From an uncultured Thermoleophilia bacterium (GTDB lineage: Bacteria > Actinomycetota > Thermoleophilia > UBA2241): DNA of 64,000 bases. The stretch lies in assembly GCA_963702475.1 (NCBI GenBank), contig CAVPCT010000003.1:288001-352000 (forward strand). The letters run 5' to 3'. This document shows positions 12,157 through 36,200 of this stretch, one piece after another. The notes under the pieces are model-generated. The model did no database searches, was not told where the DNA came from, and saw nothing but the letters and a program-made list of their open reading frames with translations. The translations under genes were made by a program, and so were the position numbers. How positions within the stretch are numbered: position 1 is the first letter of the stretch; each line of letters opens with the position of its first letter.

Positions 12157-12940
12157 TCAGGCGTCGACGCCCGGCGTGCCGGTGCCCGTATCGGGGATGC
12201 TCGCATCCGGGCCCTGCTCCTGCGCACTCTCAGCCTCGAGGATCGTCCGCTCCACGAACGTCTTCCAGAGCGCGAGCGCGCGCGGGACGTCGACTTTGGC
12301 CGGGTCGGCGAGCATCTGGATCGCGAGCCCGTCGGCCAGGGCGACGGTGAGCGCGCGCCAGGTCGGCGATGACCGGCGGCACGTCGTCTCTGTCGCCCCA
12401 GAACCCTCGCACGTTGAGGTCGCGATACGCCTGCAGAAGGTCCGAGAGCTGCCGGGCCATGCCCGGGTCGCGGAGCACGTGAGGCAGCAGGTCGAAGTAG
12501 GCCCGGTACGACGTCGAGTCGGCGAGCATGCCGGCGGCGGCGCCGTCGATGAGCAGGTCGAGGGCGTCGTGGCCGCGGGAGAGCTGCGCCAGCCGCTGCC
12601 AGACCTCCCACAAGTAGTCGTACATGAGCCAGTCGACGAGGGCCACGAGCAGGCCGTTCTTGTCTCCGAAGTAGTAGCGGATGAGGGCCTTGTTCTCACC
12701 GGCCTCGTCGGCGATGGCCTGCACGGAGAGCGCGCGGAAGCCGGAGCGCACGAGCAGGCGCCGGGCCGCCTCCAGGAGCCTGCGGGCGGTCGGCGGCATG
12801 TCCGGCTGCAGCGAGGGCGGGCCGATGGCAGCGCTCGCCGCCGGGCGCGAACGGGTCAAGGTCCCCCTGGGGGTCTTGCGCGCCGCTCTCGCGGGGGCGC
12901 GGCGGCGCGCGTCTGAGGCGTTGCGAGTGTCGTCGCTCAC
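12157..12940 (-). CDS. TetR-family regulator divergent from mttB, frameshifted near 12355
   Basis: LLEAARRLLVRSGFRALSVQAIADEAGENKALIRYYFGDK; C-terminus ALADGLAIQ in a second frame. Confidence 0.8.
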
Positions 12941-13060
12941 GTCGTCATCTTAGCAGTCGGCGGGCGCGTGCGGCGACGGACTTGTTCATACGGATACTCT
13001 CGGTCTCTCGCCGATGCACTTGTGTATTCCTTAGCAAATAGGCGGTTTATTCACTGGGCA

Positions 13061-13113
13061 TTGACAGGTCAAGCGCAAGGAGATACAAGGTGTTATTTAT
13101 CCGTTCGTATAAA
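13061..13113 (+). promoter_or_regulatory. Putative mttB promoter (TTGACA) and inverted-repeat operator
   Basis: AT-rich divergent spacer; TTGACA at 13061, TACAAG 17 bp downstream, TTTAT-ccgttcgt-ATAAA at 13096-13113. Confidence 0.5.
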
Positions 13114-13161
13114 CACCCCCACTCCGCCGATCGCGGGTGATGGGCCGGCGAAAGGAGCTGG

Positions 13162-14634
13162 ATGAGACGAGGAGCTCAGAACGCCCTTCACAGCGGAGGC
13201 GTGTCGCAGACCCTCTTCACTGAGGCCGACCTGGACGACCTGCACTCCGCCACCGTCCAGGTCCTGGAGCGCGCCGGCGTGCTGGTCGAGAGCGACGAGG
13301 CGCTGAACGTCTTCGCCGACGGCGGTTGCCGCGTGGACCGGGAGACGCACATCGTGAAGATCCCGGAGCACGTGCTGGCCGATGCCCTGGCCTCGGCGAA
13401 GTCGAGCTTCTGGCTGTGCGGCCGCGACCCCGAGGACGACGTCCTCGTGGAGGTCGGCCGCACCTGCGTGTCGCCGTTCGCCGAGGGCCTGCTCGTGAAC
13501 GACCTCGAGACCGGCGAGAACCGGCCGTCCACGAAGGCCGACGTGGCCATGCACTGCCGCATCGCCGACGCCCTCGAGCAGATGGACTTCAACATCGTCT
13601 CGGTGACGGCGCGCGACGTGCCTCCGGAGACGGCCGCCGTCCACAACCTCGCGGCGGCCCTGCCCAACACCACCAAGCCCATGAACATGTCGATGACCAC
13701 GCGGCACGAGGCGGAGCTGTGCATCGACATGGCGGCGGCGGTCGTCGGCGGCCGCGATGCGCTTCGCGAACGGCCGCTGGTCTACTTCGGCAGCTGCCCC
13801 GTGGCGCCCATGAACCTCTGCGAGACGCTCACCGACGCGTTGATCCCGACGGTGCGCGCCGGCCTGCCGTTCCTCACGATCTCCATGGGCATGGCCGGCG
13901 GATCGACGCCGATCACGCTGGCCGGCACGCTCGTCGTCCAGAACACGGAACTACTGGCGACGTACGTGCTCACGCAGCTGGTGAACCGCGGCAACGCGTT
14001 CGTCTACGGCAACTCGACCTGCACGATGGACCTGCGCTGGGGCTCCAGCGCCGTGGGCACGCCGGAGACGGCGCTGTACCAGGCCGGCAGCGTCGCCTTG
14101 GCGACCTACTACGGCCTGCCGAGCTGGTCCGCCGGCTACTAGGCGGACTCCAAGGTGAGCGACTGCCAGGCCGGGCACGAGAAGACACTCACCGGGCTCA
14201 CGACGCTGCTGGCAGGGTCCAGCATCATCTACGGCCCCGGGATGCTCGAGTCGGGCATGACCTTCGACCCGGCCCAGCTCGTCATCGACGACGAGATCGT
14301 GGCCATGACGCGCTTTCTCAAGCGGGGTGTCGCCGTCAACGATGCGACCACGGCGATCGAGGAGATCATCGCGGTCGGGCCGGCCGGCAACTTCCTGGAG
14401 CGCGACAGCACGCTCACGGGCTTCCGGTCTCTCACGTCACCGCGCCTGATCGACCGCAAGGTGCGCGAGGCCTGGGAGGCCGACGGCTCGCCCGACTTCT
14501 ACCAGAAGGCCCGCGTGCGCGCGCAGCAGCTTCTCGCGGAGCACGAGGTCGAGCCGCTCGGCGGCGGCGTGCTCGCCCAGATCCAGTCCATCGTCGTCGA
14601 GGCGGACGCGCAGTACGCAGCGGGCGGCGCGTGA
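13162..14634 (+). CDS. mttB: Trimethylamine:corrinoid methyltransferase, pyrrolysine-containing (in-frame TAG 14140-14142)
   Basis: ORFs 13162-14142 and 14155-14634 share a frame; joined sequence PSWSAGY-TAG-ADSKVSDCQAGHEKT; GGSTPITLAGTLV and GTPE motifs; 490 aa with amber at codon 327. Confidence 0.9.
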
Positions 14635-14672
14635 CCCATCCACCGGTGCTCCACGACTCAGGGGGAACGAAG

Positions 14673-15914
14673 ATGCGCAGTACGTCAGGCCGGGTCCTTC
14701 CCTTGCTGGCGCTCGGCCTCGCGGCCGCGGCGCTCATCGCCGGCTGCGGCGGCGACACCGGCAGCACCGGGGCGCGCGAGGAGAGCAGCGCGCCGGCCGC
14801 CGCCAGCGGCGAGCCGTTCAAGATCGGCTTCGACGAAGGCTTCACGGGCTTCATGGCGCTCGACACCATGCTCGTCGACCACGGTATCCAGACGGCCCTG
14901 GCGCAGATCGACGGCCAGGTCCTCGGGCGTCCGATCGAGTACCTCAAGGCCGACAACGCGTCCGACCCGGTGCAGGCCGTGGACAAGGCGCGGCAGCTCG
15001 TGGAGAGCGACGGCATCCACGCCATGCTCGGCCCCATGTTCTCGCCGTCCAATGCCGCCGTCACGGACTACCTCGCGCGCGACGGCGGCGGCATCCCGTC
15101 CATCTCGTTCATGGGCCAGCCCTACGAGAACATGAAGACGGCCGGCGGGCTGTCGTTCATCCCGACCGGGTTCTTCAGCGTCCCCGGGTACTACCTCGGT
15201 CAGTACGCGGCCGGCACCATGGGGTACACGACGGCGAACGTCATCTGCTTCGAGGACACCGCCTCGCGCGGCATGGTCGACGGCTTCAAGAAGGCGTTCA
15301 CGGAGGGCGGCGGCAAGGTCCTCAGTGAGGAGTTCGTGCCCTACGACGCCATCGACTTCGCCCCGTACATCACCACGATGCCCGAGGCGGACTGCACGAT
15401 CTACTGGATCTTCGGCAACGCCTCGGCGCCGTTCATCAAGCAGTATCGCGACTATGGCGTGGAAGCGCCGCTGCTCGCCCTGCAGGCCAGCTGCCTCACC
15501 GAGCAGCAGCTGCAGGAACTGGGCGACCTGGTGGTGGGCGTCAAAGGCGTGGACTACTACGTCAACACGCTCGACAACGAACTCAACGAGCGGTTCGTCA
15601 CGGACTACCGTGAGATGTGGGACGGCGAGTACCCGAACCTGAACTCCTGGGGAGGGTGGCTTGCGGTCAACCTCTTCGTGGAGGGATTGAAGACGACGAA
15701 TGGGGACACCACGCCGGCGAAGCTCATCGAGGCGATGTCGACGGCGACGCTCGACACGCCGTCGGGGTCCTACACGATGGCGGCGTTCGAGGACGCCTTC
15801 ACCGGCACCGGCAACATCTACATCTGCGAGGTGAAGAAGGGCGCCGAGCGGTACGAATGGGTGCCCGTCGAGACCTTCGAGCAGGTGAGGTTCACGGACA
15901 TCTCGGCAATGTGA
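14673..15914 (+). CDS. ABC transporter substrate-binding lipoprotein (LivJ/LivK-like fold)
   Basis: Lipobox LIAGC; GQVLGRPIEYLKADNASDP...LVESDGIHAMLGP. Confidence 0.85.
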   Translation: MRSTSGRVLPLLALGLAAAALIAGCGGDTGSTGAREESSAPAAASGEPFKIGFDEGFTGFMALDTMLVDHGIQTALAQIDGQVLGRPIEYLKADNASDPVQAVDKARQLVESDGIHAMLGPMFSPSNAAVTDYLARDGGGIPSISFMGQPYENMKTAGGLSFIPTGFFSVPGYYLGQYAAGTMGYTTANVICFEDTASRGMVDGFKKAFTEGGGKVLSEEFVPYDAIDFAPYITTMPEADCTIYWIFGNASAPFIKQYRDYGVEAPLLALQASCLTEQQLQELGDLVVGVKGVDYYVNTLDNELNERFVTDYREMWDGEYPNLNSWGGWLAVNLFVEGLKTTNGDTTPAKLIEAMSTATLDTPSGSYTMAAFEDAFTGTGNIYICEVKKGAERYEWVPVETFEQVRFTDISAM

Positions 15915-15933
15915 GCCGCGACCGCGGAGGGTG

Positions 15934-15977
15934 AGCGCGGCGGGCGGGCGGCCGGAGGGCCTCCCGCCCGCCGCGCT
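15934..15977. terminator. GC-rich hairpin between convergent genes
   Basis: AGCGCGGCGGGCGGG / CCCGCCCGCCGCGCT inverted repeat. Confidence 0.6.
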
Positions 15978-16001
15978 TCACGCGCGCGGGTCACCCGGAC
16001 G

Positions 16002-17397
16002 TCAGACCCCGGTCTGCGCCTCGACCCTGCCGTCGGCGATCGCCTGCTTGAGCGCCCTCCAGTCGGCCACGGTCTGGTCGGCGTAGGCCAGGGCGAACGC
16101 GCCCATCGCCTTGTCGAACACGGTGCCGGCGCCGAGGTAGGCGGCGATCGCGACCGGGTCGCCGGAGCGGGCGTGCGCCCGCGCGAGGCACCAGGCGCAG
16201 GCGTCCACGTAGTCGGTGAACTTCCTGGCCCCGAGCAGGCCGATCTCCGCGGACGCCTTCATGTCCTTGAGCTGCCGCCAGTAGTAGTGCTCCTTCACGT
16301 CCCTGATCGTGCTCCATCCGAGCAGGATGTCGCTGGACAGCTGCACCATGCGCTGGCCCAGCACCACGCGGGCTCCGTGGTGGCGGTAGGCGCTACGGCC
16401 GGCGTAGGGCTCGAGGACTGAGGCGTCGGCCTCCTTGAACTGCAGCACCAGGGCGTCGTTCTCGTCGCGGCCGACGAAGAGGGCCATGAAGCAGCGTGTG
16501 CCGACGCTGCCCACGCCGACGACCTTGCGTGCGACATCCACCATGCGGTAGCGGTCGAGGAGCACGCGACGCTCGGGCGCGAGACTCGTCCGGTACGCCT
16601 CGAAGCCCTTCCTGATCAGGTCCGTGACGAGGTCGGCGTCTCCCGGCTCCACGAGCTCGCGGAGGGGAGTGATGAGCGGCGGCATGCTCTTGAAACGGAG
16701 CCGGCCGTCGACCACCTCGGCGAGCTTGCCGATGACGTTGGCGCCCGTCTTGGTGCGGATCTTGCTGAGCCGCTTGTCGATGGTGGCGGCGCTCTTCTTG
16801 GTGGCCTGCTGGGCGGCGAGGTCCTCGACGTCGATGTGCGCGTACCAGACGTCGAGGTTGGCCGCCGCCGCGAACTGCGCCATGGACGTGCGGTAGACGG
16901 TTGCGGCGCGGGCGGCCGCCGCGAGCGCTTCGGCCTTGCCCATCTTGTTGTCGAGCCCCGCGACCGCGACGCTGGCTACCAGGCGCTTCGCGTCCCACTC
17001 CCACGGCGCCGGCAGGGTCTCGTCGAAGTCGTTCACGTCGAAAACGAGACGCCGGTCGGGGCTCGCGAACACGCCGAAGTTGGAGATGTGGGCGTCGCCG
17101 ATGGCCTGCACGCGCAGCCCGGTGACCGCGGCCGGCGCGATGTCGGCTGACCATGACCGCGGCGGCGCCGCGGAGGAAGGCGAACGGCGAGGCCGCCATG
17201 CGCCCGTAGCGGATCGGCAGCAGGTCCTGCTGCCGCGTCGCGCCCTGGTCCACCAGGATCCGGATGGGGTCGCGGCCGGCCGGCGGCGTGTGCTGCGCCA
17301 GCGCCTTGCGCGGTGCGGCTTCGCGCGCCGCGCGGCCCTTCGCGGTGCGCTCCTCGAGCGTCGGATGCTTCCTCGGAGTACGCTTGGGGTCGCTCAT
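16002..17397 (-). CDS. DUF2252-family protein (kinase-like fold), frameshifted near 17150
   Basis: IRYGRMAASPFAFLRGAAAVM, GDAHISNFG, DVNDFDET, KVVGVGSVGTR, WRQLKDMK, LARAHARSGD. Confidence 0.85.
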
Positions 17398-24127: not shown

Positions 24128-24517
24128 TCATGCCGTCTCTCTGAACCCCGCGCCGGCGCGCATGATGGCCGGCAGCAGGTCGGTCGCGATGGCGCGCTTC
24201 AGCACGACGGCGTCCGCGCCGGCCACGAGCGCCGCCTGTCTCACGGTGTCCTCGTCGTGCACGCTGAGGGCGACGACCTTGAGCTCCGGGCAGCGCTCGC
24301 GCAGGGCCCGGAGCCAGCCCAGGCCGCTGTCGCGGGCCAGTGAGAGATCGACGACGGCCACATCCGGGTCCAGGCGCACGGCGCCCTCGAGCAGCGAGGC
24401 CTCGTCGGCGACCATGACCACGGTCCCGAAGGCCGTCTCGAGGAGTCCGCGCACCCCCTCGCTGAGGCCGTGGTGGCGGTCGGCCAGCAGTACGCAACTC
24501 AGCGACCTCTCCGGCAT
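24128..24517 (-). CDS. Stand-alone response regulator receiver domain
   Basis: VLLADRH, PDVAVVDL, VALSVHD, GADAVVLK; no output domain. Confidence 0.8.
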   Translation of the reverse strand: MPERSLSCVLLADRHHGLSEGVRGLLETAFGTVVMVADEASLLEGAVRLDPDVAVVDLSLARDSGLGWLRALRERCPELKVVALSVHDEDTVRQAALVAGADAVVLKRAIATDLLPAIMRAGAGFRETA

Positions 24518-24583
24518 GCCGTCCACGTCTCCTTCCACGCCTCGGTCCCCGGCGGGTCGCACGACGCACCGGGAGTGGACCCG

Positions 24584-24652
24584 ACACTAGACGCGACCGG
24601 CTCACTTGTGACCTCGGGAATGTACGGGGCCGAGGGCTCGGGGAACTACGAG
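24584..24652 (-). promoter_or_regulatory. Regulon promoter P1 (receiver/SHOCT/DUF6325 operon)
   Basis: Boxes at 24637-24652 and 24613-24628; GTCACA, 17 bp, TAGTGT. Confidence 0.75.
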
Positions 24653-24745
24653 TGGTCGGGGGTCGAGGCAGGCGACCGGCGAAGGTCCGGGGGGTGCGAA
24701 CGCCGCCGGGCTGCCTCCTCAGGGCTCTTGGTGTAGCTTGGGTGG

Positions 24746-26743
24746 GTGACCACTACGGACGGGACAGACGCGTCGTCGGAGCCTCTCTCGGACCTTCTCG
24801 AGTTCGAGAAGCTCTTCTGCGACGTCTCCACGCAGTTCATCAACCTCGCACCCGGCGAGCTCGACCGTGAGATCGAGGACGTTCAGCGCCGGATCTGCGA
24901 GATCCTCGGCCTCGACGTCTCGGTCCTGTGGGAGTCGGTTGCCGACGACGACTCCGACCTCACGCTGACCCACGTCTACAGCGCCGAACAAGGTCAGGCG
25001 CGACTCATGCTGGGCACGAGAGCGACGGAGTACTACCCCTGGTTCCATGAGCAGATGATGGCCGGCCGCACCGTGGTCGTCTCCACGCTCGACGACCTGC
25101 CCGAGGAGGCCAGCGTCGACCGCCTGAACGGGAGCCTTCTCGGTCTGCGCTCGAACCTGACCGTGCCGCTCGCCGTGGGCGGTCAGCCGCCTATCGGAGC
25201 GCTCGCCTTCAACACCACCAAGGCCGAGCGCGTCTGGCCCCGCGCCCTGGTCACGCGACTCGAGCTGATCGGTCAGGTCTTCGCCGGCGCGCTCGCGCGA
25301 CGGCGCGCCGACGAGGCGTTGCGTGAGAGTCAGGACCGCCTGGCCGTGGCGCTCGACTCGGCCGAGGCGGGGCCGTGGAGCCTGGACTACGGGACGCGGA
25401 TCTTCTGGCTCTCCTCGCAGGCCCGTACGATCTTCGGCTTTGCTGCCGACGAGGTCGTCTCTCTGGACAGGTTGCGCGAGCGGGTGCACGCGGACGATTG
25501 GCGTCTCATCGAGGAGGCGATAGGCGACGCTGCGAGGAGCGGCGAGCTGACCACCGTGGAGTACCGCATCGTCACGCCCGACGGTGGAGTGCGGCACATC
25601 TCGACCCGCGGGAGATTCCACTTCTCCGCGTCGGGAGAGCCGGAGCGCCTCATGGGTGTCACGATCGACGCCACCGAGCGCAGAAATGCGCAGGAGGCCC
25701 TGCTTGCCAGCGAAACGCGTCTGGAGGCAGCGGTCGAACTCGCCGGACTCGCGTTCTACGAGGTGCGTTTTGACGAGGGCACAACATATGTGGACGACCG
25801 CTTCAGGGAGCTCACCGGCCTGCCGCCCGAGCGCGAGCAGGGTCTCGGCGCGCTGGAGTACTGGATCGAGCAGCTCCACCCGGAGGACCGCGAGAGAGTG
25901 CTGGATCAGCGCAGGCTGCTGCACGACGGGAATCTGGAGACGCTGTTCGTCGAGTACCGCTTCCTCGACCCCGTCCGCGGCGAACGATGGTTCCAGCACA
26001 TCGGGCGGATCGCGAGGCGCGATGCGGCCGGCTACGCTGTGCGAGCGTACGGCGTCCTGCGTGACGTCACGGCGCGGCTGCGCGCCGAGAGCGAGATGCA
26101 GGAGCTCAGCCGGCGCCTGCTCACGGCGCAGGAGCAGGAGCGGGCGGTGCTCGCCCGCGAGCTGCACGACGACGTGAGCCAGCGGCTCGCGGTGCTGGCA
26201 ATCGACGTCGGCCGCGCGGAACTCGACGCCTCGGAGGGGCCGCAGGCCGAGGCCATGCAGGGCGTGCGCGAGGGCCTGATGCGCCTGAGCGAGGACGTGC
26301 ACACCATGGCGTACCAGTTGCACCCCTCGATCCTCGAGGAGCTCGGCCTGGCCGAGGCGCTGCGCGCCGAGTGCGAGCGCCGGCACCGCCGGGGCGACCT
26401 GGACGTGGCGGTCGACGTGAAGGCGTTGCCGCCCGGCATACCCGACCACGCGGCGCTCTGCCTGTTCCGCGTCGCCCAGGAGGCGCTCACGAACGTTGCG
26501 CATCACGCCGGCGCGACGGCGGCGAGTGTCTCCCTGCGGGAGGCGGACGGCGGTCTCCTGCTCGCCGTGTCAGATGACGGCCGCGGGTTCGAGGTCGGGG
26601 ACCCAGGCAAGAAGGGACGCCTCGGGCTGGCGAGCATGCGCGAGCGTGTCCTGCTCGTGAACGGCACCCTGGACATCGACAGCGGCCCCGGGCGCGGCAC
26701 GACTGTCTTGGCCTGGGTCCCGCTGGAGAGGGAGGACGCGTGA
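24746..26743 (+). CDS. Cytoplasmic sensor histidine kinase (GAF-PAS-PAS-HisKA_3-HATPase)
   Basis: ERAVLARELHDDVSQ H-box, QEALTNVAHHA, DDGRGF, GLASMRER; two PAS/PAC repeats; no TM helix. Confidence 0.9.
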   Translation: MTTTDGTDASSEPLSDLLEFEKLFCDVSTQFINLAPGELDREIEDVQRRICEILGLDVSVLWESVADDDSDLTLTHVYSAEQGQARLMLGTRATEYYPWFHEQMMAGRTVVVSTLDDLPEEASVDRLNGSLLGLRSNLTVPLAVGGQPPIGALAFNTTKAERVWPRALVTRLELIGQVFAGALARRRADEALRESQDRLAVALDSAEAGPWSLDYGTRIFWLSSQARTIFGFAADEVVSLDRLRERVHADDWRLIEEAIGDAARSGELTTVEYRIVTPDGGVRHISTRGRFHFSASGEPERLMGVTIDATERRNAQEALLASETRLEAAVELAGLAFYEVRFDEGTTYVDDRFRELTGLPPEREQGLGALEYWIEQLHPEDRERVLDQRRLLHDGNLETLFVEYRFLDPVRGERWFQHIGRIARRDAAGYAVRAYGVLRDVTARLRAESEMQELSRRLLTAQEQERAVLARELHDDVSQRLAVLAIDVGRAELDASEGPQAEAMQGVREGLMRLSEDVHTMAYQLHPSILEELGLAEALRAECERRHRRGDLDVAVDVKALPPGIPDHAALCLFRVAQEALTNVAHHAGATAASVSLREADGGLLLAVSDDGRGFEVGDPGKKGRLGLASMRERVLLVNGTLDIDSGPGRGTTVLAWVPLEREDA

Positions 26744-34754: not shown

Positions 34755-35632
34755 ATGACCGCGACTGTCGAGAGAGCGACACGCGCATGCAGCGACTCGG
34801 CTACCGGGCGCCGGACCGATGTCCCCGAGCCGGAGGAGCTCGTGCTCGGTCGAGTACGTCTCCGGTGGGCAGGATGCGCGATCGTCACCCTCAACCGGCC
34901 GCACGCCGACAACGCGGTCACGACGGAGCTCGCCGCTCAGCTGATCGAGATCCTCGAGACCATCGACGCCCGCGCCTCCGTGCGCGTCGCCATCCTGACC
35001 GAGTGCCGGTGACCGGGCCTTCTCGGTCGGCGGCGACCTGTACCAGCGCAAGCAGATGACCAAGGAGCAGTGGCTGCGCCAGCGCCAGGTCTTCGACCGG
35101 GTGCTGCTACAACGCTGCGGCAGCTGCGCCGGCCGATCATCGCCGCGGTCCACGGCATGGCCTACGGCGGTGGCTGCGAGATGGCCATCAGCATGCGACT
35201 TCATCATCGCGTCCGACGATGCCGTCTTCGGCCAGCCCGAGGCGATGGTCGGCCTGTCCGCCGGCGGTGGCTCCCCGGTCTTCCTGCCCCGGCTCCTCCC
35301 TCCGGGCAGGGCCATGCAGATGCTGATGACCGGAGATCCGATCACGGCCCAGGAGGCCTACCGCCTGGGCATGGTCAACGAGCTCCACCCGCGGGCCGAG
35401 CTGATGGACGCGGTCGTGGCCATCGCGGAGCAGGATCGCGCGCCAACTCGCCGACCGCCGTGCAGGCGGTCAAGCGGGCGGTCAGTCATGGGCCAGGGCG
35501 AGCCGGTCGAGCAGGCGATCGCGATCATGATGGAGTCAGCACTGGCGCTCCGTGGTCCATCCCGACCGCGTCGAGGGCATCAAGGCCTACACCGAGGGTC
35601 GCGAGCCGGTGTTCCCGGACCCGGACTTCTGA
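34755..35632 (+). CDS. Enoyl-CoA hydratase/isomerase, several frameshifts
   Basis: VTLNRP..NA, FSVGGDL, IAAVHGMAYGGGCE, FGQPE, TGDPITAQEAYRLGMVN. Confidence 0.8.
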
Positions 35633-35691
35633 GCTGGAGCAAGCTGCCGCACGGCGGCGGGCTTGAGGTCGAGGGCGTCAGGCTGGGATAG
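35631..35691 (+). repeat. 61-bp remnant paralogous to the 3' end of the DszB-like gene (34609-34669)
   Basis: SWSKLPHGGGLEVEGVRLG* vs SWSKLPQGGGLEVEGMRLG*; 9 mismatches, mostly synonymous. Confidence 0.8.
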
Positions 35692-35733
35692 TCGGGGGAT
35701 CTGTCTGCCGATAGCTCAGAGAACGGAGAGCTG

Positions 35734-36200
35734 ATGAACGACGAAGTCATGGACGAGCTGGGGCCGATCGACTATCTGATCGTCGAGTTCCCGGCCGGCA
35801 AGGCCGACTTCTCCGGCGCGATGGCGGAGAAGCTGAAGGGGCTGGTCGAGGCGGGCATCGTGCGCGTGCTCGACCTGCTCATCATCACCAAGGACGAGGG
35901 CGGCGAGGTCGACGCCTTCGAGCTGCACGAGTTCGAGGACGGAGGCGCCGGCGCACTCCGTGAGATCGGCGCCGAGTTCGCGCAGCTGCTCTCGGAGGAA
36001 GACGTCGCCCACATCGCCGCGGCGCTCGAGCCCGGTACGGTGGCCGCGGCGCTCGTCTGGGAGAACACTTGGGCCGCGCCGTTCGCGGCCTCGATCGCAA
36101 GTCCTGCGGCCGGCTGGTCGGCAGCGGTCGCATCCCCGTGAAGGCGATCCTCGCCGCCGCCGAGGCGGGCGCGGATGCTGCATCGAAGGAAGGAGCTTGA
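35734..36200 (+). CDS. DUF6325-family protein, frameshifted near 36100
   Basis: LGPIDYLIVEFP...VRVLDLL...LVWENTWAAPF...SGRIP. Confidence 0.8.

What the first reader, a model, noticed from the sequence alone, without database searches (positions are those of the whole stretch)
13162..14634. Pyrrolysine-type MttB: genetic code expansion in a high-GC, probably actinobacterial genome
Seen: two ORF-track pieces share one frame and are separated only by TAG 14140-14142 in SAGY-TAG-ADSK..DCQAGHEKT, giving 490 aa with amber at codon 327. Known: Methanosarcina MttB has Pyl at the equivalent position (residue 334 of about 495), just before DSK..D.Q..HE. Inference: the organism encodes the 22nd amino acid and demethylates trimethylamine or a related amine. 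This is a substitution-type stop at the expected site, unlike the indel errors elsewhere in the window.
Basis: partly seen in the sequence, partly recalled or inferred. Interest (0 to 1): 0.85.

Follow-up and report, generated by a model that had tools for sequence, protein, structure and literature searches.

The report
Pyrrolysine-type trimethylamine methyltransferase gene, actinobacterial genome
The apparent stop codon inside this gene is almost certainly read as the rare 22nd amino acid pyrrolysine in a methylamine-demethylating enzyme, a real but already described kind of genetic-code expansion.

Summary
One frame runs from ATG 13162 to TGA 14634 and is broken only by TAG 14140-14142, codon 327 of 490. 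That codon aligns with Pyl334 of the solved Methanosarcina barkeri MttB. The protein passes NCBIfam's Pyl-type MttB equivalog model.

The contig that carries the window also carries pylB, pylC, pylD, a CUA-anticodon tRNA-Pyl, pylSn and pylSc. Fifteen MttB paralogs in this genome carry TAG in the same alignment column. So do at least seven mtbB genes and one mtmB gene at their own sites. PylSc was found in 22 of 25 sampled genomes of the same family. Short-read contigs from two studies also hold the TAG.

The phylum looks like Actinomycetota, in a class that lacks WhiB.

The trait is not new. PylRS in Actinobacteria and expressed Pyl-mttB/mtbB in Actinobacteriota genomes assembled from metagenomes are in print, and this scan has met the same trait in other actinobacterial genomes.

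This copy has three particular features:
- It belongs to a divergent subclade.
- It has Ala-Glu where M. barkeri has Gly110-Thr111.
- It has no adjacent corrinoid gene, and a lipoprotein solute-binding gene follows it.

Verdict: a new member of a known kind, of modest interest.

The parts
13162..14634 (+). mttB-type methyltransferase gene, 490 codons, read through one TAG
   Evidence: Searches give the frame. E 8.7e-93 to PDB 7xcl (M. barkeri MttB). TIGR02369, 574.5 bits against a cut-off of 525.
14140..14142 (+). TAG, the inferred pyrrolysine codon (codon 327)
   Evidence: It aligns with X334 of 7xcl. It sits in the same column as the TAG of 14 other paralogs. It is kept in the 81% identical paralog at C6. 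Contigs X1 and X11 cover it.
14140..14239 (+). Match to Rfam RF02510 PYLIS_3 ('pyrrolysine insertion sequence mttB'), starting at the TAG
   Evidence: 52.3 bits against a gathering score of 38. The match is mostly sequence identity within conserved coding DNA. Several model pairs are non-standard here, and folding gives z = -0.18, so no RNA structure is supported.
13152..13157 (+). AAGGAG ribosome-binding-site-like motif, 4 nt before the ATG
   Evidence: Read directly from the sequence.
14673..15914 (+). Lipoprotein solute-binding protein (Peripla_BP_6), 38 nt downstream on the same strand; possible operon partner
   Evidence: One search gives the frame and a signal peptide ending in a ..AGC.. 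lipobox. PF13458, 191.5 bits; only weak urea/branched-chain-type matches, far below cut-offs; one paralog in the genome (62% identity), not beside a methyltransferase.
12230..12940 (-). Divergently oriented TetR-family regulator gene
   Evidence: PF00440, 48.4 bits; only sub-threshold BetI-like matches to the HTH region.

Best explanation
This is an intact gene for a pyrrolysine-dependent, corrinoid-dependent methylamine methyltransferase of the MttB type. The ribosome reads UAG 14140-14142 with Pyl-tRNA(CUA). That tRNA is charged by a split PylSn+PylSc synthetase with pyrrolysine made by PylBCD, all encoded about 340 kb away on the same contig.

The rest of the mechanism is inferred by analogy with M. 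barkeri MttB. The pyrroline imine of Pyl327, assisted by Tyr357, binds and activates trimethylamine or a close tertiary amine. A methyl group is passed to the Co(I) of a separate MttC-like corrinoid protein. An MtbA-like or pterin-binding methyltransferase then passes it to a C1 carrier that feeds the organism's Wood-Ljungdahl enzymes. RamA-type proteins reactivate oxidised corrinoid.

Shown here: the gene anatomy, the alignment of TAG with Pyl334, the complete pyl gene set, conservation of the TAG across paralogs and relatives, and coding constraint after the TAG.

Inferred: actual Pyl insertion, the substrate, the corrinoid partner acting in trans, and the fate of the methyl group.
For: Gene and site:
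- The frame holds a single TAG.
- The match to the solved MttB has E 8.7e-93, with the TAG on X334. Met249, Tyr364 and Gly372 are kept as M242, Y357 and G365.
- TIGR02369 equivalog: 574.5 bits against a cut-off of 525.

Machinery, all on contig C3:
- pylB 438.1 bits, pylC 323.8, pylD 209.1, pylSn 126.2 and pylSc 314.6. Each is above its cut-off.
- The only CUA-anticodon tRNA lies between pylD and pylSn. ARAGORN calls it tRNA-Pyl, with a 6-bp anticodon stem.

Conservation:
- TAG sits in the same column in 15 of 61 paralog rows.
- 141 of 145 strong matches across 30 of 31 genus genomes carry a TAG.
- After the TAG, the 81% identical paralog differs in 37 codons synonymously and in 38 non-synonymously over 163 codons. 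There is no indel, and third positions change about twice as often per site as first and second positions.
- PylSc is present in 23 of 24 genus genomes and in 22 of 25 family genomes.

Pathway parts in the genome:
- 43 B12-binding matches.
- RamA family at 3 loci.
- URO-D/MtbA-like, 11 matches.
- Acetyl-CoA synthase CdhC.
- Pterin-binding methyltransferases.
- TAG-bearing mtbB (7 full-length) and mtmB (1).
- The 81% paralog is followed directly by an MttC-like corrinoid gene.

Reads: contigs from two studies hold the TAG.
Against: - There is no RNA or protein evidence. No RNA holder was listed.
- The Gly110-Thr111 pair, described as part of the active site and Gly110 as fully conserved in 66 UniProt Pyl-MttBs (passages read), is Ala107-Glu108 here.
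- No corrinoid, MT2 or RamA gene lies beside this copy. The nearest B12-binding match is a weak one 10.3 kb away.
- TAG still ends roughly 15% of long coding-like ORFs (385 of 2519 in a crude count). Readthrough must therefore compete with termination, and it may be conditional.
- No relative above 51% identity was found in the 30 other genus genomes sampled, so this copy is not a conserved core gene of the genus.
- The genome is a MAG with 6.5% estimated contamination. However, the gene and the pyl genes share one 1.14-Mb contig.
Confidence: 0.88

Rival explanations
1. It is a Pyl enzyme, but not a trimethylamine enzyme. The window copy and its subclade would be neofunctionalised Pyl-MttBs that demethylate another tertiary or secondary amine. 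The neighbouring solute-binding lipoprotein might take that amine up.
For: - The genome has 15 TAG-bearing paralogs that are only 44-50% identical to this one, apart from the 81% copy.
- The subclade of 4 (window, C6 copy and two tandem copies in RBG_16_64_13) is well separated on the tree, with support 100.
- It has Ala or Thr plus Glu at the Gly110-Thr111 site.
- Uniquely, a Peripla_BP_6 gene follows it instead of mttC.
Against: - It passes the TMA-specific equivalog model.
- Pyl, Tyr364, Met249 and Gly372 are kept.
- The Gly110/Thr111 contacts described in the paper are made by backbone atoms. Glu at the Thr111 position is the rule across the actinobacterial clade, and Gly110 varies (G, A, S, T, D) in many members.
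- Sharing a neighbourhood with one binding-protein gene is weak evidence, and the 81% paralog has an ordinary mttC beside it.
Confidence: 0.2
2. The TAG is a true stop, through a nonsense mutation, a pseudogene or an assembly error, and only a truncated 326-aa fragment or nothing is made.
For: - The assembly does contain broken genes. Examples are mtbB and corrinoid genes split over frames and a partial enoyl-CoA hydratase at window 34999-35691.
- TAG is a common stop in this genome.
Against: - The stop lies exactly at the Pyl column and is shared by paralogs and by relatives in other genomes and metagenomes.
- The downstream 163 codons stay open and under constraint.
- The full pyl machinery is present.
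- Independent short-read contigs show the same TAG.
Confidence: 0.03
3. The UAG is read through, but with a standard amino acid supplied by a suppressor tRNA or by near-cognate decoding, not with pyrrolysine.
For: Close full-length relatives carry V, Q, T, W or L at this column, so the fold tolerates other residues.
Against: - The only tRNA with a CUA anticodon found has the tRNA-Pyl shape and sits inside the pyl gene cluster.
- Most relatives with a sense residue have also lost Tyr364. The window protein keeps it.
Confidence: 0.02

Closest known systems
MttB, trimethylamine:corrinoid methyltransferase of Methanosarcina barkeri (PDB 7XCL/7XCM/7XCN; Li et al. 2023, PMC9842639, passages read)
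   Same: It has the same family and length. The alignment covers residues 9-487 with E 8.7e-93, and the TAG falls on Pyl334. Met249, Tyr364 and Gly372 are kept.
   Different: - It is bacterial, with Ala-Glu in place of Gly110-Thr111.
- There is no adjacent mttC or mttP.
- The methyl group presumably goes to a folate-type carrier, not coenzyme M (inference).
- PylS is split into two genes.
Pyl-encoding mttB/mtbB of Actinobacteriota MAGs (Ellenbogen et al. 2023, PMC10805028, passages read) and 'two Actinobacteria' with PylRS (Guo et al. 2022, PMC9630628, passages read)
   Same: It is the same phylum-level setting and the same trait. The nearest named relative of the window gene lies in the MAG Actinobacteria bacterium RBG_16_64_13 (59% and 55% identity, two tandem TAG copies).
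   Different: Those papers identify the genes by truncation or list PylRS only. In the passages I read, they do not describe this subclade, the number of paralogs per genome, or the family-wide spread seen here.
Non-Pyl MttB-superfamily members such as the glycine betaine methyltransferase MtgB (PDB 2qne/9yce/4yyc)
   Same: They share the same TIM-barrel superfamily, and the genome holds about 46 such paralogs.
   Different: They are much more distant (E 1e-61 to 4e-36). They have a sense residue at the Pyl column and act on quaternary amines (statements quoted).
Delta1 symbiont of Olavius algarvensis (Zhang and Gladyshev 2007, PMC1976440, passages read)
   Same: It is a bacterium that uses both Sec and Pyl and has several Pyl methyltransferases.
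   Different: That genome had 8 Pyl genes (6 mtbB, 2 mttB). This one has 15 TAG-bearing mttB loci, 7 full-length mtbB and 1 mtmB.

Membership tests
Pyl-type MttB (NCBIfam TIGR02369 trimeth_pyl; Pfam PF06253) | The whole-protein score exceeds the curated equivalog cut-off | tested here: met
   574.5 bits against a cut-off of 525. PF06253, 287.9 bits against a cut-off of 25.
Pyl-type MttB (NCBIfam TIGR02369 trimeth_pyl; Pfam PF06253) | A single in-frame UAG aligns with Pyl334 of M. barkeri MttB | tested here: met
   query position 327 aligns with X334 of 7xcl_A.
Pyl-type MttB (NCBIfam TIGR02369 trimeth_pyl; Pfam PF06253) | Active-site residues Tyr364, Met249 and Gly372 are kept | tested here: met
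   Y357, M242 and G365. The residue list comes from PMC9842639.
Pyl-type MttB (NCBIfam TIGR02369 trimeth_pyl; Pfam PF06253) | The Gly110-Thr111 pair is present (Gly110 reported as 100% conserved in 66 UniProt Pyl-MttBs) | tested here: not met
   Ala107-Glu108. The same column reads G, A, S, T or D among the 29 TAG-bearing rows compared, so the reported invariance does not hold in this clade.
Pyl-type MttB (NCBIfam TIGR02369 trimeth_pyl; Pfam PF06253) | [quoted passage not shown] | not testable with these tools
   This needs an enzyme assay.
Pyrrolysine decoding system | A tRNA-Pyl with a CUA anticodon is present | tested here: met
   G000 C3:641046-641118. It is the only CUA-anticodon tRNA among the 51 tRNAs found.
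Pyrrolysine decoding system | Pyrrolysyl-tRNA synthetase is present (PylSc catalytic domain plus PylSn) | tested here: met
   TIGR02367, 314.6 bits against 178.15. TIGR03912, 126.2 bits against 51.15. They are separate genes 15 kb apart.
Pyrrolysine decoding system | The biosynthesis genes pylB, pylC and pylD are present | tested here: met
   438.1 bits against 348.2; 323.8 against 248.3; 209.1 against 150.05. They lie in a row at C3:637885-640975.
Pyrrolysine decoding system | Pyrrolysine is found in the protein | not testable with these tools
   This needs mass spectrometry.
Rfam RF02510 PYLIS_3 | The score exceeds gathering and the model's base pairs are kept | tested here: inconclusive
   52.3 bits against 38, but several pairs are flagged non-standard; z = -0.18. 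The match can be explained by conserved coding sequence.

The most novel reading that the evidence does not exclude
A whole family of WhiB-less Actinomycetota has turned pyrrolysine from a one-enzyme curiosity into a platform. There are up to 15 deeply diverged Pyl-MttB paralogs per genome, plus many MtbB. The active-site rim varies (G/A/S/T/D at the 'invariant' Gly110), and Pyl has been lost repeatedly to L, V, T, W (and possibly Q).

On this reading the paralogs, including the window's Ala-Glu subclade with its own solute-binding lipoprotein, demethylate different amines. Pyl chemistry would then serve a much wider substrate range than tri-, di- and monomethylamine.
Probability: 0.2. Interest if true: 0.65.

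Novelty: new member of a known kind. Interest (0 to 1): 0.3.

Why it matters
Gene callers cut this gene at the TAG. In one search, 87 of the 120 best database relatives are 325-328-aa stubs, and the RBG_16_64_13 copy is filed as a 'hypothetical protein'. Methylamine use by these anaerobic actinobacteria is therefore under-counted in metagenome surveys.

These organisms compete with methylotrophic methanogens for trimethylamine. Correct annotation therefore bears on methane and nitrogen budgets in sediments, wastewater and soils.

The gene itself adds no new principle. The many diverged Pyl paralogs could be a resource for enzyme and substrate discovery.

Tried and rejected
- **Expression.** The look-up of sequencing runs listed no RNA holder, so nothing can be said about expression.
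- **PYLIS-like structure.** The RNA fold of 14137-14260 gives z = -0.18. The Rfam PYLIS_3 hit is mainly sequence identity with broken pairs. I do not count it as evidence for an RNA element.
- **Promoters and terminators.** The scan of 12800-16200 found no promoter-like site and one terminator-like site, on the wrong strand inside the gene, which is no more than shuffles give.
- **Inverted repeats.** In the intergenic stretch 12940-13170 there are only two weak pairs. No operator is proposed.
- **Other TAG readthrough in the window.** The pairs 34999-36141 and 24344-26743 are not single domains spanning a TAG. They are neighbouring genes or upstream non-coding sequence.
- **Genome-wide readthrough list.** The crude list of 60 in-frame 'ORF-TAG-ORF' pairs mixes true Pyl genes with adjacent genes. 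I did not resolve it.
- **Ligand and regulator.** NCBIfam naming of the binding protein and the TetR regulator gave only sub-threshold matches, so no ligand can be named.
- **Kinship of RBG_16_64_13.** The tool tells no kinship for genomes reached through such loci. No PylSc over cut-off was found in that 2.6-Mb fragmented genome, which is not evidence of absence.
- **Literature search.** The first broad search was badly framed and returned irrelevant papers.
- **Not done.** No structure prediction or complex prediction was run, because the match to a solved structure is already at E 1e-93.

Full report
**1. The observation**

The window sequence shows ATG at 13162, preceded by AAGGAG at 13152-13157. 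One in-frame TAG lies at 14140-14142, and the closing TGA is at 14632-14634. Under table 11 the frame splits into ORFs 13162..14142 (326 aa) and 14155..14634. Read through, it gives 490 residues with the amber at codon 327, in ...SWSAGY-O-ADSKVSDCQAGHEKT....

**2. Is it the pyrrolysine position?**

A search against all PDB chain sequences finds M. barkeri trimethylamine methyltransferase, 7xcl_A, at E 8.7e-93 over residues 9-487. Query position 327 aligns with the X at residue 334 of that chain. The structure paper names this residue Pyl334 (PMC9842639, passages read).

NCBIfam's equivalog model for the Pyl-type enzyme, TIGR02369, scores 574.5 bits against a cut-off of 525. Non-Pyl members with solved structures are far weaker, at E 1e-61 to 4e-36.

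**3. Does the organism have the machinery?**

The window is G000:C3:288001-352000 in a 4.31-Mb assembly of 9 contigs. The assembly has 70% GC, 93.8% completeness and 6.5% contamination. The following all lie on contig C3, each above its curated cut-off:

| Gene | Position on C3 |
|---|---|
| pylB | 637885-638913 |
| pylC | 638955-640109 |
| pylD | 640193-640975 |
| tRNA-Pyl (CUA) | 641046-641118 |
| pylSn | 642228-642485 |
| pylSc | 657647-658372, opposite strand, next to a TAG-bearing mtbB |

The tRNA is the only one of 51 with a CUA anticodon, and it has a 6-bp anticodon stem. A tRNA-Sec is also present.

The rest of a methylamine pathway is in the genome:
- 43 B12-binding matches.
- RamA-type activase at three loci.
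- 11 URO-D/MtbA-like matches.
- Acetyl-CoA synthase.
- Pterin-binding methyltransferases.

**4. Conservation of the TAG**

PF06253 gives 75 matches in the genome. I extracted the 64 strongest and dropped the 11 shortest fragments. I aligned the 63 of at least 200 aa. Of these, 61 cover the column, and 15 have TAG exactly there. Thirteen of the 15 are near full length and two are partial or broken copies. The other 46 carry sense residues.

PF09505 (MtbB) finds 7 full-length genes with one TAG, plus fragments. PF05369 (MtmB) finds one gene with TAG and four without.

In the genus, 29 of 30 other sampled genomes have strong matches to the window protein, and 127 of those 129 matches carry an in-frame TAG.

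Among the 120 best database relatives, 87 are 325-328 aa, which means they were cut at this codon by gene callers. The three that I aligned end one residue before the column.

Against its 81% identical paralog (C6:373669-375129), the 163 codons after the TAG show 37 synonymous-only and 38 non-synonymous codon differences. There is no indel and both copies keep TAG. This fits translation past the TAG.

Contigs of runs X1 and X11, from two studies, cover the codon, and no variant is listed there. The limits are that only contigs could be laid, 44 variant rows were hidden, and one run may be the source.

**5. Taxon and spread**

PylSc is found in 23 of 24 same-genus genomes. In a class-wide draw it is found in 22 of 25 genomes of the same family, spread over seven genera. 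Only 2 of 125 genomes from the rest of the class have it.

The WhiB family rings only in Corynebacterium among the 14 control genomes. It is absent from G000. It is present in 33 of 60 other genomes of the same phylum group and in 0 of 4 from the same class. That tally includes three unpublished genomes (G048, G064, G092), all with matches. Without them it is 30 of 57.

This makes Actinomycetota the likely phylum and places the genome in a WhiB-less class. I have not tested which class.

The nearest named relative of the gene lies in the MAG 'Actinobacteria bacterium RBG_16_64_13'.

**6. Where this copy sits among its relatives**

I built a quick maximum-likelihood tree of 35 rows with LG+G4 and SH-aLRT support only. 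The rows were 29 TAG-bearing sequences, two Leu variants and four non-Pyl outgroups from this genome.
- All actinobacterial Pyl-type sequences fall in one clade (support 94), beside Desulfobacula and Methanolobus sequences.
- The window gene pairs with its C6 paralog (99). Both are sister to two tandem TAG-bearing copies of RBG_16_64_13 (100), which are 59% and 55% identical to the window protein.
- No sampled genome of the genus has a relative above 51% identity, so this subclade is patchy.
- Two paralogs with Leu at the column (C4:42533 and C4:59973) nest inside the Pyl clade.

Ten full-length database relatives, 44-58% identical to the window protein, carry V, Q, T or W at the column. Eight of the ten have also replaced Tyr364. 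I cannot exclude that the Q reflects a gene caller using another genetic code.

**7. Active site and neighbours**

M. barkeri's Met249, Tyr364 and Gly372 are kept. Gly110-Thr111 is Ala107-Glu108.

The paper reports Gly110 as fully conserved in 66 UniProt sequences, and it describes the contacts as made by backbone atoms. In the 29 TAG-bearing rows compared here, that column reads G, A, S, T or D, and Glu at the next position is the rule in the actinobacterial clade. I therefore read the difference as lineage variation, with a minority chance that it marks a changed substrate.

The gene is flanked by a divergent TetR-family gene and followed after 38 nt by a lipoprotein of the Peripla_BP_6 family. 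That binding protein has only one paralog, elsewhere in the genome, and no nameable ligand.

No corrinoid gene is adjacent. The nearest B12-binding match is weak and lies 10.3 kb away. Five of the 15 Pyl-mttB copies have one within 500 bp, including the 81% paralog.

**8. Decoding context**

In a crude count of long coding-like ORFs, TGA ends 2055, TAG 385 and TAA 79. UAG therefore remains a common stop, as reported for other Pyl-using bacteria (PMC1976440, passages). Readthrough may depend on expression of the pyl genes, which is an inference.

Rfam's PYLIS_3 model matches 14140-14239 above gathering. The match is mostly sequence identity in conserved coding DNA, several pairs are broken, and the fold is no more stable than shuffles. 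I do not claim an RNA element.

**9. What is known**

- Guo et al. 2022 list PylRS genes in 'two Actinobacteria' among 81 bacterial genomes (PMC9630628, passages). A 2025 review repeats this (PMC11764691, one passage).
- Ellenbogen et al. 2023 report Actinobacteriota MAGs that express Pyl-encoding mttB and mtbB, and they name the genus RBG-16-64-13 among active methylotrophs (PMC10805028, passages). I did not see their supplements or trees.
- This scan has also recorded Pyl-type mttB/mtbB in other actinobacterial genomes.

The trait is therefore known. What this genome adds is its scale: 15 mttB, at least 7 mtbB and 1 mtmB with TAG, against 8 in the Olavius delta1 symbiont. It also adds the family-wide spread and a divergent subclade. 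I do not claim that the paralog counts are a record.

**10. Verdict**

This is a new member of a known kind, of modest interest.

Noticed in passing
G000 whole genome (outside the window); e.g. C9:308746-310107, C2:39989-41359, C9:301399-302748: The set of Pyl genes is very large. It has 15 TAG-bearing mttB loci, 7 full-length TAG-bearing mtbB plus fragments, and 1 TAG-bearing mtmB with 4 non-Pyl MtmB homologs. There are also about 46 non-Pyl MttB-family paralogs and 43 B12-binding matches.
   Followed up: partly
G000 C4:42533-43942 and C4:59973-61373; database proteins P0006, P0009, P0010, P0013-P0015, P0020, P0024, P0026, P0031: Full-length relatives nested in or close to the Pyl clade carry L, V, Q, T or W at the Pyl column. 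Eight of the ten database ones have also replaced Tyr364, by E, C or H. This suggests repeated loss of pyrrolysine with a change of mechanism. The Q might be an artefact of a gene caller's genetic code.
   Followed up: partly
G000 C3:167171-167268: A tRNA-Sec (anticodon TCA) lies on the same contig, so the organism probably uses both the 21st and the 22nd amino acid.
   Followed up: no
G000 C3:634213-636099 (L039:213-2096): An aldehyde:ferredoxin oxidoreductase (AOR-family) gene lies about 1.8 kb upstream of pylB.
   Followed up: no
window 34999-35691 (+); G000 C3:1127754-1128081, C5:930966-931293, C7:37364-38577, C5:362180-363436: Several genes look broken across frames. They include a partial enoyl-CoA hydratase in the window (only profile positions 108-189 match), split corrinoid genes and split mtbB copies. 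These are either indel errors of the assembly or pseudogenes.
   Followed up: no
G000 whole genome; same-class genomes G025, G027, G028, G029: No WhiB-family gene was found in this genome or in 4 of 4 same-class genomes, although 33 of 60 other genomes of the phylum group have several (the tally includes unpublished G048, G064, G092).
   Followed up: partly
G032 and G181 (same class, family f4): Two genomes of another family of the class also carry PylSc above cut-off, among 125 non-family genomes sampled. This may reflect a separate acquisition or a relic.
   Followed up: no
L024, L025 (Methanolobus MAG loci): These TAG-bearing Methanolobus MttB homologs have Phe at the Tyr364 position and Val at the Thr111 position. 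The 'fully conserved' Tyr364 therefore also varies outside the UniProt set.
   Followed up: no
G000 C2:50362-51049: ARAGORN reports a tmRNA with tag AEDNSFALAA and an overlapping second permuted tmRNA call, which is probably an artefact.
   Followed up: no
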